The translations under genes were made by a program, and so were the position numbers. Below are positions 54,910 to 61,398 of a stretch of DNA of 64,000 nucleotides, in pieces; positions within the stretch are counted from its first letter, which is position 1; each line of letters begins with the position of its first letter. This stretch comes from Escherichia phage FL23, in sequence record PP400787; one strand, given 5' to 3'. A model generated the notes under the pieces. The model did no database searches. It saw nothing but the letters and a program-made list of their open reading frames with translations, and had not been told where the DNA came from.

Positions 54910-55394
54910 TTTTAAAAACTCGCTGGTATGATTTAGATGATGGGGACGATGGCATTTCAGTTGATAGAGTTGACTGGAATGGTTGTTCCGAAGATATGAA
55001 AAATTTGTTGATTAGGGAGTTTAGAATGGGATATCAAGCAGCTAAGCCATTTACTGTAACAGATGATAAGTTCGTATGTATTCAAAACGGTCGCGCTAAG
55101 TTAACGAATGCTGATTGGTTCACAGATAAGAAGGTTCTTCTGTGGTATATCATTAGTCTTCCTATATCATCGTTCGTATTTTACTTTTTTATAAAAAATC
55201 CAATGGACAGAATAGGAGATTGGGTTCTTTTAACTATACTTGTTAATATTTTTACAGCAGCAGTATTATCAGGAATATGGCGTATGTTCATTGAAATGCC
55301 ATGGCGTTTACGCAGACAACAAAAGATTTTTGATGAAAAGAAATATACTCAAAATTTAAATAACTTTATCACTGAATGCAGGAAATTAAAATGA
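54906..55394 (+). CDS. Small membrane protein, paralog family member 3
   Basis: 162-aa ORF; TM segments; C-terminus ...NFITECRKLK; ATGA coupling on both sides. Confidence 0.5.
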   Translation: MILKTRWYDLDDGDDGISVDRVDWNGCSEDMKNLLIREFRMGYQAAKPFTVTDDKFVCIQNGRAKLTNADWFTDKKVLLWYIISLPISSFVFYFFIKNPMDRIGDWVLLTILVNIFTAAVLSGIWRMFIEMPWRLRRQQKIFDEKKYTQNLNNFITECRKLK

Positions 55395-55831
55395 AAACAC
55401 TATCAGCTGGTATTATCTTTATGACAGAAGATAAAGATTTATTTATGGGTCGGGTTACTGGTTCTCGTAAGCCTGGAATGATGGCACATCGCTGGGATAT
55501 TCCAAAGGGCCGCGTAGAAAGTTCTGATTTGAATGCACTGGAAGCTGCAAAAAGAGAATGCTTAGAAGAGACCGGTTTTAGCAATTATAATCCAGACCTT
55601 CTAGAAGACCTAGGTGTATTTAAATATTCTAGTAATAAAGACTTACAGTTATTTTATTATACGATTCCAGTAGAGCATGAGATGTTTAGAAATTGCCATT
55701 GCGAGTCTTATTTTGAAAATAAAGATGGCGTTATGATTCCAGAGATGGATGCTTTTGCTCTTATTCCTCGTACTCAGTGGCAATATGTGATGGGTCCTTC
55801 ACTTTACCGAATAATGAACAACCTCTTTTAA
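55391..55831 (+). CDS. nudE: Nudix hydrolase (NudE-like)
   Basis: Nudix box GRVESSDLNALEAAKRECLEETGF; start set at ATG 55391 (ATGA overlap with upstream stop, SD aggaaa) rather than the track's 55376. Confidence 0.75.
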   Translation: MKTLSAGIIFMTEDKDLFMGRVTGSRKPGMMAHRWDIPKGRVESSDLNALEAAKRECLEETGFSNYNPDLLEDLGVFKYSSNKDLQLFYYTIPVEHEMFRNCHCESYFENKDGVMIPEMDAFALIPRTQWQYVMGPSLYRIMNNLF

Positions 55832-55833
55832 TT

Positions 55834-55854
55834 TATAAATACCTTCTATAAATA
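55834..55854 (+). promoter_or_regulatory. Two late promoter cores (TATAAATA at 55834-55841 and 55847-55854) upstream of gene e
   Basis: Exact octamers; the proximal one lies in the loop of the RBS-sequestering hairpin. Confidence 0.6.
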
Positions 55855-55867
55855 CTTAGGAGGTATT
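55838..55867 (+). promoter_or_regulatory. RBS-sequestering hairpin for lysozyme gene e
   Basis: 9-bp stem aataccttc (55838-55846) with ggaggtatt (55859-55867, contains SD GGAGG); 12-nt loop contains TATAAATA. Confidence 0.6.
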
Positions 55868-56356
55868 ATGAATATATTTGAAATGTTACGTATAGATGAA
55901 GGTCTTAGACTTAAAATCTATAAAGATACAGAAGGTTATTACACTATTGGCATTGGTCATTTGCTTACTAAAAGTCCATCACTAAGTGTTGCTAAATCTG
56001 AATTAGATAAAGCTATTGGACGTAATTGCAATGGCATAATTACCAAAGACGAGGCTGAAAAACTCTTTAATCAGGATGTTGATGCTGCTGTTCGTGGAAT
56101 TTTGAGAAATGCTAAATTAAAACCAGTTTATGATTCTCTTGATGCTGTTCGCCGCTGTGCATTGATTAACATGGTCTTCCAAATGGGAGAAACCGGCGTA
56201 GCAGGATTTACTAATTCTTTACGTATGCTTCAACAAAAACGTTGGGATGAAGCGGCAGTAAATCTAGCCCAATCTAAATGGTATCGTCAGACACCTAATC
56301 GCGCGAAACGCGTAATTTCAACATTTAAAACAGGAACTTGGAAAGCGTATATATGA
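55868..56356 (+). CDS. e: Endolysin, T4 lysozyme (e)
   Basis: 162-aa [36 protein letters not shown]... with catalytic Glu11/Asp20 context. Confidence 0.9.
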
Positions 56357-56634
56357 AAACATATAGTGAATTTTTATCAGAATCTATTCTTAACGAAGCT
56401 ACTGACACATTTGCAACTAAGCTAGGTGCAGCTTTGGTTGAAGCTGAAAGTCTATTAGCACGTATTTCTGAACTTGCTAGTAAGATAGATACTCGCAAAT
56501 TTGAGCGCACCAGTGATATCGTTAAGCTTGAAGCCTTGTTGCGTATGTGCGATAAACCGGAAGAAATCGCTAAGAACGGCTCGTTGATGAAACAGCGTCT
56601 TGAAAAATATATTTCAGGCGCTTCAGAAAAATAG
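56353..56634 (+). CDS. Internal-protein-like capsid-targeted protein ([13 protein letters not shown]...)
   Basis: 93 aa from ATG 56353 (ATGA overlap with e stop); paralog of ORF 48413-48670. Confidence 0.6.
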
Positions 56635-56635
56635 T

Positions 56636-56689
56636 GTTTACTTCCTCCAAGGGTTTTGATACTATACATTCATCAACTACTTGGAGGAA
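56636..56689 (+). promoter_or_regulatory. Early promoter with SD-sequestering stem-loop (PeSL-like)
   Basis: GTTTACT, 17-nt spacer, TACTAT (56660-56665); 10-bp inverted repeat 56642-56651 / 56680-56689 whose 3' arm contains SD GGAGG. Confidence 0.6.
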
Positions 56690-59526: not shown

Positions 59527-59528
59527 CT

Positions 59529-59581
59529 GTTTACTTTTCCTCTTGACTGTGGTATAATTTTTCTATCAGTTAAGAGGAGAA
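59529..59581 (+). promoter_or_regulatory. Early promoter with SD-sequestering stem-loop (PeSL-like) for regB
   Basis: GTTTACT, 17-nt spacer, TATAAT (59553-59558); 10-bp stem ttttcctctt (59535-59544) with aagaggagaa (59572-59581, contains SD). Confidence 0.65.
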
Positions 59582-59585
59582 TAAC

Positions 59586-60047
59586 ATGACTATCAATACA
59601 GAAGTTTTTATCCGTAGAAATAAGCTTCGTCGTCACTTTGAGTCGGAGTTTCGTCAAATTAACAATGAGATTCGTGAGGCATCAAAAGCAGCAGGGGTCT
59701 CATCGTTTCATCTAAAATATTCTCAGCATCTTCTTGATCGTGCAATTCAACGGGAGATTGATGAGACATATGTTTTTGAATTATTCCACAAAATAAAAGA
59801 CCATGTTTTAGAAGTTAATGAATTCCTGAGTATGCCTCCGCGTCCTGACATTGATGAGGATTTTATTGATGGGGTTGAATACCGTCCTGGACGTTTAGAA
59901 ATCACAGATGGAAATCTTTGGCTTGGATTTACAGTTTGTAAACCTAATGCAAAGTTCAAAGACCCGTCACTTCAATGTAGGATGGCAATTATTAACAGTC
60001 GTCGTTTACCAGGAAAGGCTTCTAAAGCAGTAATTAAAACTCAATGA
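59586..60047 (+). CDS. regB: RegB site-specific endoribonuclease
   Basis: 153-aa ORF, same length as T4 RegB; position upstream of vs/tk. Confidence 0.75.
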   Translation: MTINTEVFIRRNKLRRHFESEFRQINNEIREASKAAGVSSFHLKYSQHLLDRAIQREIDETYVFELFHKIKDHVLEVNEFLSMPPRPDIDEDFIDGVEYRPGRLEITDGNLWLGFTVCKPNAKFKDPSLQCRMAIINSRRLPGKASKAVIKTQ

Positions 60048-60054
60048 GGTAAGC

Positions 60055-60600
60055 ATGAGAAAAGCACTACTCGCTGGTCTATTGGCCATTTCAATGATGG
60101 CACATAGCTCCGAGCATACTTTCAGTAATGTCCAACTCGATAACATGCGTTACGCGTATCAATTCGGGGAACAATTTTCTAAGGATGGAAAATATAAAAC
60201 ACACAAAAACATCCATAAGAGCGGATTGGGTCATATAATGGCTGCTATTTTGTGGCAAGAAAGCTCTGCCGGAGTTAATTTAAAATCTAAACCAAAGCAT
60301 CATGCCTATGGAATGTTCCAAAATTATTTGCCTACTATGCGAGCAAGAGTTAAGGAACTTGGTTATAATATGACCGATGCTGAAATAAAAAGAATGTTGA
60401 ATAAACGGTCCAATTCAGCTTCCTGGGCGTACATTGAACTTTCTTATTGGTTAAATATACATAAGGGCGATATAAGAAAGGCGATATCCTCTTATAATTC
60501 GGGATGGAATGTTAAAGCAGGTTCTAAATATGCTTCTGAAGTCCTAGAAAAGGCTAATTACCTTAAAAATAATAAACTTTTGGAAATAGTAAATGACTAA
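60055..60600 (+). CDS. Secreted protein with lytic-transglycosylase-like motif (vs.1 position)
   Basis: 181-aa ORF with N-terminal signal peptide (MRKALLAGLLAISMMAHS) and WQESS motif. Confidence 0.5.
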   Translation: MRKALLAGLLAISMMAHSSEHTFSNVQLDNMRYAYQFGEQFSKDGKYKTHKNIHKSGLGHIMAAILWQESSAGVNLKSKPKHHAYGMFQNYLPTMRARVKELGYNMTDAEIKRMLNKRSNSASWAYIELSYWLNIHKGDIRKAISSYNSGWNVKAGSKYASEVLEKANYLKNNKLLEIVND

Positions 60601-60934
60601 AATTTTGGTTTTATGTATAGGATTAATTTCATTTTCTGTGTTAGCAGATACATCATATACTGAAATTAGAGAGTATGTAAACCGTACTGCCGCGGATTAT
60701 TGTGGGAAAAATAAAGCATGCCAAGCTGAATTTGCGCAGAAATTAATATATGCATACAAAGACGGAGAAAGAGATAAATCAAGCAGATATAAAAATGATA
60801 CATTGTTAAAACGATATGCTAAAAAGTGGAATACTTTAGAATGTTCAGTTGCGGAGGAGAAAGATAAAGCCGCTTGTCATTCAATGGTTGACCGTTTAGT
60901 AGATTCTTATAATCGAGGATTGAGTACTAGATGA
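60593..60934 (+). CDS. Small secreted Cys-containing protein (vs position)
   Basis: 113-aa ORF with signal peptide and 4 Cys; symbol not assigned because only synteny supports it. Confidence 0.45.
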   Translation: MTKILVLCIGLISFSVLADTSYTEIREYVNRTAADYCGKNKACQAEFAQKLIYAYKDGERDKSSRYKNDTLLKRYAKKWNTLECSVAEEKDKAACHSMVDRLVDSYNRGLSTR

Positions 60935-61398
60935 TTGTAAAATATATCAAGGGCGATATTGTCGCCCTTTTCGCTGAAGGTAAAAATATCGCTCATGGTT
61001 GTAACTGTTTCCACACGATGGGATCAGGAGTAGCTGGTCAATTAGCTAAAGCTTTTCCTAAGATTTTGGAAGCCGACAAATTGCAAACTGAATGGGGAGA
61101 TGAAACTAAACTCGGTTCTTATTCGGTTTACGAAAAATATTTCAGAACTCATAAAGCTTATTGCTTTAATCTTTACACACAGTTCGAACCTGGACCGAAT
61201 TTTGAGTACTCTGCTTTAATGAATTGTATGTTAGAATTAAATGAGTTTGGTGAAAATAAACTGATTAAACCTACAATCTATATGCCTAGGATTGGTGCAG
61301 GCATAGGTAAAGGGAACTGGGATATTATTGAGGGGATTTTAGATACATATTCCTCTAAATTAGAAATTGTGATTGTTGATTGGGAACCATTATTATGA
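60931..61398 (+). CDS. Macro-domain (ADP-ribose-binding/processing) protein
   Basis: 155-aa ORF with macro-domain-like motifs GDIVALFAEGKNIAHGCNC...MGSGVAGQLAKAFP. Confidence 0.55.
   Translation: MIVKYIKGDIVALFAEGKNIAHGCNCFHTMGSGVAGQLAKAFPKILEADKLQTEWGDETKLGSYSVYEKYFRTHKAYCFNLYTQFEPGPNFEYSALMNCMLELNEFGENKLIKPTIYMPRIGAGIGKGNWDIIEGILDTYSSKLEIVIVDWEPLL

What the first reader, a model, noticed from the sequence alone, without database searches (positions are those of the whole stretch)
55391..61398. Two NAD/ADP-ribose-related accessory enzymes (Nudix and macro domain) in the early region
A Nudix hydrolase (55391-55831) and a macro-domain protein (60931-61398) lie in the same accessory region. 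Both fold families act on ADP-ribose derivatives, which are central to several bacterial anti-phage systems, so they may have counter-defence roles beyond nucleotide housekeeping.
Basis: inference. Interest (0 to 1): 0.4.

Follow-up and report, generated by a model that had tools for sequence, protein, structure and literature searches.

The report
Known T4 genes nudE and tk.4
The two flagged genes are near-identical copies of two well-known phage T4 genes: the Nudix hydrolase NudE, and the macrodomain protein Tk.4, which was recently shown to protect T4 from the bacterial DarTG2 defence, so the finding is correct but not new.

Summary
The window is a Tequatrovirus that matches Escherichia phage FL44 except for two differences in 11.2 kb. 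ORF 55391-55831 is the orthologue of T4 nudE (e.1), 96% identical at the protein level, with a Pfam NUDIX hit. ORF 60931-61398 is the orthologue of T4 tk.4, 98% identical. Its macro fold is confirmed by Pfam, by an AlphaFold model (pLDDT 94) and by Foldseek hits to Poa1p, TARG1, BT1257 and DarG.

Both genes are already characterised in T4. NudE cleaves ADP-ribose, Ap3A, FAD, NAD and NAD-capped RNA in vitro. A 2025 preprint named tk.4 adfM, after a knockout made T4 sensitive to DarTG2. It remains unproven for the Nudix gene.

The two genes are not a module. They lie 5 kb apart, about 17 genes lie between them, and the linkage holds only in close T4 relatives.

One detail deserves follow-up. The catalytic lysine of DarG (K80) and TARG1 (K84) is an invariant glutamine in the Tk.4 family. 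Tk.4 is therefore not a simple copy of the DarG antitoxin, and how it works is inferred, not shown.

The parts
55391..55831 (+). nudE (e.1) orthologue: Nudix pyrophosphohydrolase, 146 aa. An alternative upstream ATG at 55376 gives the 151-aa form annotated in T4.
   Evidence: Pfam NUDIX 3.4e-13. 96% identity to T4 NudE. Same position as in T4, between e.2 and e. Shine-Dalgarno sequence and ATGA overlap at 55391.
55508..55579 (+). Nudix box G45-x5-D-x8-R-E-C-L-E64-E65-T-G-F (151-aa numbering). It is one residue longer than the canonical GX5EX7REUXEEXGU motif.
   Evidence: Regular-expression check on the translation. E64 and E65 are the residues whose mutation inactivates T4 NudE.1.
60931..61398 (+). 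tk.4 / adfM orthologue: stand-alone macrodomain protein, 155 aa. Its start overlaps the stop codon of vs (ATGA).
   Evidence: Pfam Macro, 28.3 bits against a gathering score of 22. 98% identity to T4 Tk.4. AlphaFold2 pLDDT 94.2. Foldseek matches to Poa1p, TARG1, BT1257 and DarG. DarG is the only hit in PADLOC and NCBIfam, over its macro part only.
60994..61008 (+). H22-G-C-N25-C26 loop of the macrodomain. N25 aligns with DarG N22, and the H-x-C-N-C motif resembles that of Poa1p.
   Evidence: N25, G23 and C26 are invariant and H22 is nearly invariant in 50 family members. Alignment to Poa1p.
61168..61182 (+). N80-L-Y-T83-Q84 motif. Q84 occupies the position of the catalytic lysine of DarG (K80) and TARG1 (K84).
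   Evidence: hmmsearch alignment to TARG1. MAFFT alignments. hhalign against a DarG-type profile, probability 98.65%. Gln in 50 of 50 family members and in 78 of 79 IMG/VR loci.
61285..61320 (+). P119-R-I-G-A-G-I-G-K-G-N-W130, the glycine-rich phosphate-binding loop of the macrodomain.
   Evidence: P119, I121, G122, G124 and W130 are invariant in the family and shared with DarG, TARG1 and BT1257.

Best explanation
These are two separate accessory genes of the T4 type that are already characterised and act independently.

(1) nudE encodes a small Mg2+-dependent Nudix pyrophosphohydrolase. It cleaves the pyrophosphate bond of adenosine-containing dinucleotides: ADP-ribose, Ap3A, FAD, NAD, and the NAD cap of RNA. 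Its role in infection is auxiliary and its in vivo substrate is not resolved.

(2) tk.4 (adfM) encodes a stand-alone macrodomain of the TARG1/DarG/Poa1p/BT1257 branch. It binds ADP-ribose adducts. Most probably it hydrolyses the ADP-ribose that the host toxin DarT2 places on thymidines of single-stranded phage DNA, which allows replication in DarTG2-carrying hosts. It does so without the DarT-binding domain of the antitoxin and without the catalytic lysine of DarG and TARG1.

Shown here: gene identity, fold, homology, gene order and active-site composition. Taken from the literature on the T4 orthologues: the enzyme activities of NudE and the DarTG2 phenotype of tk.4. Inferred: the chemical step that Tk.4 carries out.

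The confidence of 0.75 is for the whole statement. That the genes are nudE and tk.4/adfM is close to certain; that Tk.4 hydrolyses thymine-linked ADP-ribose is about 0.65.
For: - The window matches Escherichia phage FL44 (Tequatrovirus) except for one SNP and one 1-nt indel in 11.2 kb.
- The products are 96% and 98% identical to T4 NudE and Tk.4. The T4 gene order is conserved: e.3, e.2, nudE, e ... regB, vs.1, vs, tk.4 ... tk.
- The Nudix box is present, including E64 and E65.
- T4 NudE.1 hydrolyses NAD and NAD-RNA in vitro, and the E64,65Q mutant is inactive. ADP-ribose, Ap3A and FAD activities come from Xu et al. 2002, as cited there.
- The macro fold is supported by Pfam, a PDB profile search, the AlphaFold2 model at pLDDT 94.2 and Foldseek.
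- The only defence-library hits are the macro part of DarG: PADLOC 4.3e-9 and NCBIfam NF048014 6.4e-7. hhalign against DarG-type macrodomains gives probability 98.65%.
- T4 tk.4 was the single hit in the DarTG2 screen, and its knockout is DarTG2-sensitive.
- A DarG-like phage macrodomain, PhiKZ gp104, removes ADP-ribose from DarT2-modified DNA in vitro (PMC13309987).
Against: - There is no biochemical evidence for Tk.4 itself. The preprint only says enzymatic removal of ADP-ribose 'seems likely'.
- The lysine needed by DarG and TARG1 is an invariant Gln in this family, and the family has no invariant lysine anywhere.
- The closest solved relatives by sequence are BT1257 (function unknown) and the ADP-ribose-1''-phosphate phosphatase Poa1p, not DarG.
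- For NudE, the catalytic mutant changes neither NAD levels nor bulk NAD-cap levels, so the relevant substrate is unknown.
- Nothing was tested on this phage itself.
Confidence: 0.75

Rival explanations
1. Tk.4 is a Poa1p-like small-molecule enzyme. It would act as an ADP-ribose-1''-phosphate phosphatase or O-acetyl-ADP-ribose deacetylase on soluble ADP-ribose derivatives, and its protection against DarTG2 would be indirect or come from a side activity.
For: - The GenBank record of phage FL44 annotates the gene as 'Poa1p-like family protein', and RefSeq (T4, G8) as 'phosphatase; A1pp motif'.
- Poa1p is the best Foldseek hit and one of the best sequence hits.
- Tk.4 shares the H-x-C-N-C loop of Poa1p. 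H22 aligns with Poa1p H23, a residue for which an H23A mutant structure was deposited.
- The catalytic lysine of DarG and TARG1 is absent.
- In one T4-like contig the macro gene sits beside the RNA-repair genes Rnl1 and PNKP.
Against: - tk.4 is specifically required on DarTG2 hosts and was the single significant hit there.
- DarT2 acts on DNA, not through a soluble signal.
- The only hits in defence-protein libraries are to DarG.
- T4 RNA repair by PNKP and Rnl1 does not produce ADP-ribose-1''-phosphate (established knowledge of that pathway).
Confidence: 0.15
2. The Nudix and macro genes form a two-step ADP-ribose disposal pathway that acts as one counter-defence unit. The macrodomain would release ADP-ribose, and NudE would degrade it to AMP and ribose-5-phosphate.
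For: - ADP-ribose is a good in vitro substrate of T4 NudE (Xu et al. 2002, as cited).
- Both genes are kept about 5-6 kb apart in 22 T4-like loci.
- One T4-like contig has macro, NADAR and Nudix genes within 2.5 kb.
Against: - About 17 unrelated genes separate the two (e, internal proteins, vs.3-vs.8, regB, vs.1, vs). Separate promoter-like sites lie upstream of e.2/nudE (54812) and of regB (59530).
- Of 57 more distant macro loci, only 5 have any Nudix within 10 kb, at varying distance and side. That is about what chance would give.
- The macro family occurs in 2842 phage records across many myovirus groups. NudE occurs in 1261 records, essentially only T4-like phages.
- The DarTG2 screen found tk.4 alone.
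Confidence: 0.05
3. NudE is itself a counter-defence enzyme. It would destroy NAD-derived immune signals such as cyclic ADP-ribose isomers, or ADP-ribose produced by NADase defence systems.
For: - It has broad activity on ADP-ribose-type dinucleotides.
- Comparative-genomics work has proposed that phage Nudix, Macro and NADAR proteins counter ADP-ribose-derived signals (PMC9503650).
- There is a weak PADLOC hit to the candidate defence protein PDC-S07, E=2.2e-4.
Against: - No experimental report was found.
- The catalytic mutant shows only a lysis delay on a host without such defence systems, and NAD levels are unchanged.
- Hydrolysing NAD would work against a phage facing NAD-depleting defences.
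Confidence: 0.12
4. Tk.4 regulates the phage's own ADP-ribosyltransferases (Alt, ModA, ModB) by reversing their protein or RNA modifications.
For: T4-like phages encode three ADP-ribosyltransferases (established knowledge). TARG1-class macrodomains can reverse protein and RNA ADP-ribosylation (PMC8883491).
Against: - Alt, ModA and ModB modify arginine, a linkage that macrodomains are not known to cleave (established knowledge; ARH1-type enzymes do this).
- tk.4 is dispensable on ordinary hosts and needed only on DarTG2 hosts.
- The family also occurs in many phage groups outside the T4-like phages.
Confidence: 0.03

Closest known systems
Phage T4 NudE / NudE.1 (gene e.1; Xu et al. 2002 JBC; bioRxiv 10.1101/2024.04.04.588121)
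   Same: 96% amino-acid identity over the full length. Same Nudix box including E64 and E65. Same position between e.2 and the lysozyme gene e.
   Different: Six substitutions, none within the R-E-x-x-E-E core of the Nudix box. The upstream e.2 ORF is longer here (162 against 102 aa) and overlaps the nudE start.
Phage T4 Tk.4 = AdfM (anti-DarT factor Macrodomain; bioRxiv 10.1101/2025.11.20.689424)
   Same: 98% identity (three substitutions in 155 aa). Same position between vs and tk.3.
   Different: No functional difference is expected. The DarTG2 phenotype was measured in T4, not in this phage.
DarG antitoxin macrodomain (T. aquaticus 5M31/5M3E, M. tuberculosis 5M3I; NCBIfam NF048014)
   Same: Same fold and clear homology: hhalign probability 98.65%, Foldseek probability 1.00. 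The conserved Asn (N25 = DarG N22) and the Gly-rich loop are shared.
   Different: Only about 22-25% identity. No C-terminal DarT-binding domain and no neighbouring darT gene. NCBIfam score 28.9 against a cut-off of 250. The catalytic K80 is replaced by an invariant Gln.
PhiKZ gp104 AdfM (chimallivirus DarG2-like macrodomain; Cell Rep 2026, PMC13309987)
   Same: A stand-alone phage macrodomain that protects against DarTG2.
   Different: It belongs to a different subfamily. The PhiKZ type is 35-40% identical to DarG and keeps N23 and K78 (motif F-P-T-K), and in vitro removal of ADP-ribose has been shown for it. BLASTP to FL44 Tk.4 gives only a 23-residue match.
Human TARG1 (OARD1), yeast Poa1p, Bacteroides BT1257 (ALC1/TARG1-like macrodomain branch)
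   Same: These are the best solved-structure matches by sequence and by fold. BT1257 shares the N-x-x-x-Q motif. Poa1p shares the H-x-C-N-C loop.
   Different: The catalytic K84 and D125 of TARG1 are Q84 and G126 here. Poa1p has Ser at the lysine position and acts on a soluble phosphate ester. BT1257 has no known function.
T4 AdfN (gp61.2, NADAR; Nat Commun 2025, PMC11825919)
   Same: The same strategy: an orphan enzyme resembling an antitoxin that counters a DarTG system.
   Different: An unrelated fold (NADAR). It acts on guanine-linked ADP-ribose made by DarT1, not on the thymine-linked ADP-ribose made by DarT2.

Membership tests
Nudix hydrolase superfamily (Pfam PF00293) | Profile score above the curated gathering threshold | tested here: met
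   50.2 bits against 21.1, E=3.4e-13.
Nudix hydrolase superfamily (Pfam PF00293) | Nudix box GX5EX7REUXEEXGU with the catalytic glutamates | tested here: inconclusive
   The strict pattern is absent. The sequence is G45-x5-D-x8-RECLEETGF, which has a one-residue insertion and Asp in place of the first Glu. The REx2EE core is intact. T4 NudE has a box of the same length and is active.
T4 NudE (e.1) orthologue group | High full-length identity and conserved position next to the lysozyme gene e | tested here: met
   96% identity. Gene order e.3, e.2, nudE, e. PHROG 1185 at 1.9e-74.
T4 NudE (e.1) orthologue group | Hydrolysis of ADP-ribose, Ap3A, FAD, NAD and NAD-RNA | not testable with these tools
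   Known only for the T4 protein.
Macro domain (Pfam PF01661) | Profile score above the gathering threshold, and a macro fold | tested here: met
   28.3 bits against 22. AlphaFold2 pLDDT 94.2. Of the top 50 Foldseek matches in the PDB, 46 are natural macrodomains (four are entries described as designed serine hydrolases), all at probability 1.00.
T4 Tk.4 / AdfM orthologue group | High identity and position between vs and tk.3 | tested here: met
   98% identity. Gene order regB, vs.1, vs, tk.4 ... tk.
T4 Tk.4 / AdfM orthologue group | Required for growth on DarTG2-expressing hosts | not testable with these tools
   Shown for T4 only.
DarG antitoxin (NCBIfam NF048014, PADLOC DarG) | Full-length match above the curated cut-off, including the C-terminal DarT-binding domain | tested here: not met
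   28.9 bits against a cut-off of 250. Only profile positions 2-146 of 338 (NCBIfam) and 2-145 of 329 (PADLOC) are matched, and the protein is only 155 aa.
DarG antitoxin (NCBIfam NF048014, PADLOC DarG) | Encoded next to a darT toxin gene | tested here: not met
   The neighbouring genes are vs and tk.3, in a lytic phage genome.
DarG antitoxin (NCBIfam NF048014, PADLOC DarG) | Catalytic lysine (K80 in T. aquaticus DarG, K84 in TARG1) | tested here: not met
   Gln at the aligned position by three methods. Gln in 50 of 50 family members and in 78 of 79 IMG/VR loci.
DarG antitoxin (NCBIfam NF048014, PADLOC DarG) | Conserved active-site Asn (N22) | tested here: met
   N25 is invariant and aligns with DarG N22.
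Poa1p-like ADP-ribose-1''-phosphate phosphatase | H23 and S30 of Poa1p (residues mutated in the PDB entries 6LFS and 6LFT) | tested here: inconclusive
   H22 aligns with H23 and is present in 47 of 50 family members. The residue aligned with S30 is T29, present in only 33 of 50. The C-terminal half aligns poorly in phmmer.

The most novel reading that the evidence does not exclude
The Tk.4/AdfM family, found in about 2800 phage genomes, would be a distinct branch of TARG1/DarG-like macrodomains that removes thymine-linked ADP-ribose from DNA without the catalytic lysine thought essential in DarG and TARG1. It would instead use an invariant H-G-C-N-C ... N-x-Y-T-Q active site. That would be a new catalytic route to DNA de-ADP-ribosylation. 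Alternatively, it neutralises DarT2 by a non-hydrolytic or different-substrate route.
Probability: 0.45. Interest if true: 0.4.

Novelty: already known. Interest (0 to 1): 0.15.

Why it matters
It matters little as a discovery. Both genes have been named T4 genes for more than 20 years. NudE was characterised biochemically in 2002 and again in 2024-26, and the counter-defence role of the macro gene was published in late 2025.

The useful outcomes are these:
- The annotation in the near-identical GenBank record of phage FL44 can be upgraded from 'Poa1p-like family protein' to adfM.
- The apparent Nudix-macro pairing is shown to be inherited gene order, not a module.
- The T4-type AdfM lacks the catalytic lysine of DarG and TARG1. 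This is a concrete, cheaply testable question about how phages reverse ADP-ribosylation of their DNA.

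Tried and rejected
- **Functional Nudix-macro module.** I fetched 79 IMG/VR loci carrying Tk.4-like genes with 10-kb flanks. I scanned them by tblastn with two Nudix proteins and with a Nudix-box pattern. A NudE-type gene lies at -4.6 to -6.5 kb in 22 close T4-like loci only. Just 5 of the other 57 loci have any Nudix nearby. Rejected.
- **Bacterial origin or darT neighbourhood.** Two hits labelled as bacterial metagenome-assembled genomes (P0083, P0120) turned out to be T4-like phage contigs with no darT gene.
- **DarG membership.** Rejected on domain architecture, curated score and catalytic lysine.
- **Substitute lysine.** I looked for a lysine elsewhere in the family that could take over the catalytic role. 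None is invariant, and the best is K60 at 44 of 50.
- **Literature on a NudE counter-defence role.** Nothing was found.
- **Promoter scan.** Promoter-like sites are no more frequent than in shuffled sequence (28 against 33.5), so the transcription-unit assignment is only suggestive.

Full report
**Where the window comes from.** A megablast of 55300-61700 against the phage collection gives full-length identity to Escherichia phage FL44 (PP400790.1, Tequatrovirus). More than 300 other T4-like phages match at 90-95%. Over 11.2 kb the window differs from that record by one SNP (57329) and one T6/T7 homopolymer difference (58070). The window runs in the opposite direction to the T4 map. The local gene order is e.3, e.2, nudE, e, internal-protein genes, vs.8 to vs.3, regB, vs.1, vs, tk.4, tk.3 to tk.1, tk, as in T4.

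**Check of the observation.** Both ORFs are present as described.
- ORF 55391-55831 scores 50.2 bits on Pfam NUDIX (gathering score 21.1) and 1.9e-74 on PHROG 1185. It is 96% identical to T4 NudE.
- Its Nudix box is G45-x5-D-x8-RECLEETGF. This is one residue longer than the textbook motif but keeps the RE-x2-EE core. T4 NudE, which is active, has a box of the same length.
- Of the two possible starts, 55391 has an AGGAA ribosome-binding site and overlaps the upstream stop codon (ATGA). The 55376 start, which gives the 151-aa form annotated in T4, has no ribosome-binding site.
- ORF 60931-61398 scores 28.3 bits on Pfam Macro (gathering score 22) and 4.2e-67 on PHROG 335. It is 98% identical to T4 Tk.4.
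- A profile of 50 family members hits solved macrodomains at 7.5e-16 to 6.6e-11: BT1257, TARG1, SCO6735, Poa1p and DarG.
- An AlphaFold2 model has pLDDT 94.2 and pTM 0.90, with the expected alternation of strands and helices. Its best PDB matches are Poa1p, TARG1, BT1257 and DarG, all at probability 1.00.

**What is already known.**
- *T4 NudE (e.1).* It was characterised in 2002 as a Nudix hydrolase active on FAD, Ap3A and ADP-ribose (Xu et al., cited). A recent preprint shows that it also hydrolyses NAD and decaps NAD-RNA in vitro, about nine times faster than E. coli NudC, and that E64,65Q abolishes the activity. A T4 phage carrying that mutation lyses about 15 minutes late, with normal burst size, unchanged NAD levels and unchanged bulk NAD-cap levels.
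- *T4 tk.4.* It has long been annotated as 'phosphatase; A1pp motif'. A November 2025 preprint (HIDEN-SEQ) found tk.4 to be the single significant conditionally essential gene of T4 on a DarTG2-expressing host. It confirmed this with a clean knockout, named the gene adfM, and proposed enzymatic removal of ADP-ribose from DNA. No biochemistry was done.
- *PhiKZ gp104.* Independently, a DarG2-like macrodomain of chimalliviruses was also named AdfM and was shown to de-ADP-ribosylate DarT2-modified DNA in vitro.

**How Tk.4 relates to DarG.**
- In the PADLOC and NCBIfam libraries the only hit of the macro protein is DarG. The match covers only the N-terminal macro part (positions 2-145 of 329 and 2-146 of 338) and scores 28.9 bits against a cut-off of 250.
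- Profile-profile comparison with DarG-type macrodomains gives probability 98.65% over 146 columns. The comparison set was M. tuberculosis DarG, T. aquaticus DarG, a PhiKZ-like AdfM and a Kuravirus protein.
- Tk.4 is therefore a homologue of the DarG macrodomain. It lacks the DarT-binding domain and a toxin neighbour, so it is an 'orphan antitoxin-like' enzyme, as AdfN is for DarTG1.
- It is not a close copy. DarG-type phage macrodomains are 35-40% identical to DarG, whereas T4-like ones sit at about 26% identity near the detection limit. The best solved relatives of Tk.4 are BT1257 and Poa1p.

**The active-site difference.** Three independent alignments place Q84 of Tk.4 at the position of the catalytic lysine: hmmsearch against TARG1, MAFFT and hhalign.
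- That lysine is K80 in T. aquaticus and M. tuberculosis DarG, K84 in TARG1 and K78 in PhiKZ AdfM. The motif reads F-P-T-K in the DarG type and N-L-Y-T-Q here.
- Gln is present in 50 of 50 aligned family members and in 78 of 79 IMG/VR loci at 30-86% identity. Those loci were retrieved with patterns that do not include this position.
- TARG1 D125 is also absent: the aligned residue is G126.
- No lysine is invariant in the family.
- What is conserved is H22-G-C-N25-C26, D49, N80-x-Y-T-Q84 and the Gly-rich loop. N25 corresponds to DarG N22. The H-x-C-N-C loop resembles that of Poa1p.

The literature describes the lysine as the shared catalytic residue of DarG and TARG1. The chemical step performed by T4-type AdfM is therefore inferred, not shown, and it probably differs in mechanism.

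**Are the two genes a unit?** No.
- They are 5.1 kb apart. Between them lie the lysozyme gene with its own two late-promoter motifs (55834 and 55847), internal-protein genes, vs.8 to vs.3, regB, vs.1 and vs.
- The best + strand promoter-like sites lie upstream of e.2/nudE (54812) and of regB (59530). Such sites are no more frequent here than in shuffled sequence.
- Among 79 phage loci carrying a Tk.4-like gene, a NudE-type gene sits at a constant -4.6 to -6.5 kb in 22 loci, all close T4 relatives (macro identity 46-86%).
- Only 5 of the other 57 loci have any Nudix within 10 kb, at varying positions. That is roughly what one Nudix gene per ~170-kb genome would give by chance.
- Tk.4-like genes occur in 2842 phage records, judging by host names and genome sizes spanning T4-like phages and several other groups of large phages. 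NudE-like genes occur in 1261 records, essentially only T4-like.
- One T4-like contig does cluster macro, NADAR and Nudix genes within 2.5 kb. This shows that such clustering can occur, but it is not the rule.

**Verdict.** Both genes are orthologues of named T4 genes. The macro gene is the anti-DarTG2 factor AdfM. The Nudix gene has no demonstrated counter-defence role. Novelty: already known. The only point of residual interest is that the Tk.4/AdfM family has replaced the DarG/TARG1 catalytic lysine with an invariant glutamine, which makes its mechanism an open and easily testable question.

Noticed in passing
window 56338-57428: The region between e and the vs.8-like gene differs from T4. 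ipIII is absent. Three short ORFs begin with the N-terminus typical of T4 internal proteins, MK(T/M)Y-x-EF: 56353-56634, 56802-56987 and 57126-57428. The last matches T4 IPII at 92% identity over 86 of 100 residues. This is a known hypervariable locus of proteins injected with the DNA.
   Followed up: partly
window 56668-56792: denV (endonuclease V, which repairs UV-induced pyrimidine dimers) survives only as two out-of-frame fragments of 27 and 17 residues. They lie upstream of ipII, whereas in T4 denV lies between ipII and vs.8. This phage probably lacks a working denV (tblastn).
   Followed up: partly
window 58070 (and 57329): The window has a run of T6 where GenBank PP400790.1 has T7. The extra T in the record fuses vs.8 and vs.7 into one annotated 858-nt CDS. 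In the window they are separate ORFs (57542-58093 and 58090-58398) with an ATGA overlap, as in T4. There is also one SNP at 57329. The record may contain a homopolymer sequencing error.
   Followed up: yes
L007 5001-7495 (GCA_034680565.1 contig, T4-like, 195 kb): A Tk.4-like macro gene, a NADAR gene (AdfN-like) and a Nudix gene lie within 2.5 kb. This may be a small island of ADP-ribose-processing genes in a distant T4-like phage.
   Followed up: no
L006 41-5809 (GCA_051648945.1 contig, T4-like): Here the Tk.4-like macro gene sits between an Rnl1-type RNA ligase gene and a Dda-like helicase gene, close to a PNKP gene and a DUF4326 gene. This is an RNA-repair neighbourhood rather than the vs/tk neighbourhood seen in T4.
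   Followed up: no
one of IMG/VR loci L008-L086 (locus not identified): One of the 79 Tk.4-like genes has N-L-Y-T-K instead of N-L-Y-T-Q. It is a natural variant that restores a lysine at the catalytic position of DarG and TARG1.
   Followed up: no
window 54906-55394: The e.2-like ORF is 162 aa, against 102 aa in T4. Only its first 97 residues match T4 e.2. Its C-terminal extension contains a hydrophobic stretch and overlaps the nudE start.
   Followed up: no
window 50010-51367: A cluster of eight tRNA genes (Gln, Leu, Gly, Pro, Ser, Thr, Met/Ile-CAT, Arg), as I recall for T4 (not checked against the T4 record here).
   Followed up: no
window 58406-58768: The vs.6 orthologue is a GrcA-like autonomous glycyl-radical cofactor (Pfam Gly_radical, 2.1e-18). 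It is a spare part for damaged pyruvate formate-lyase. It is known in T4 and is ordinary here.
   Followed up: no
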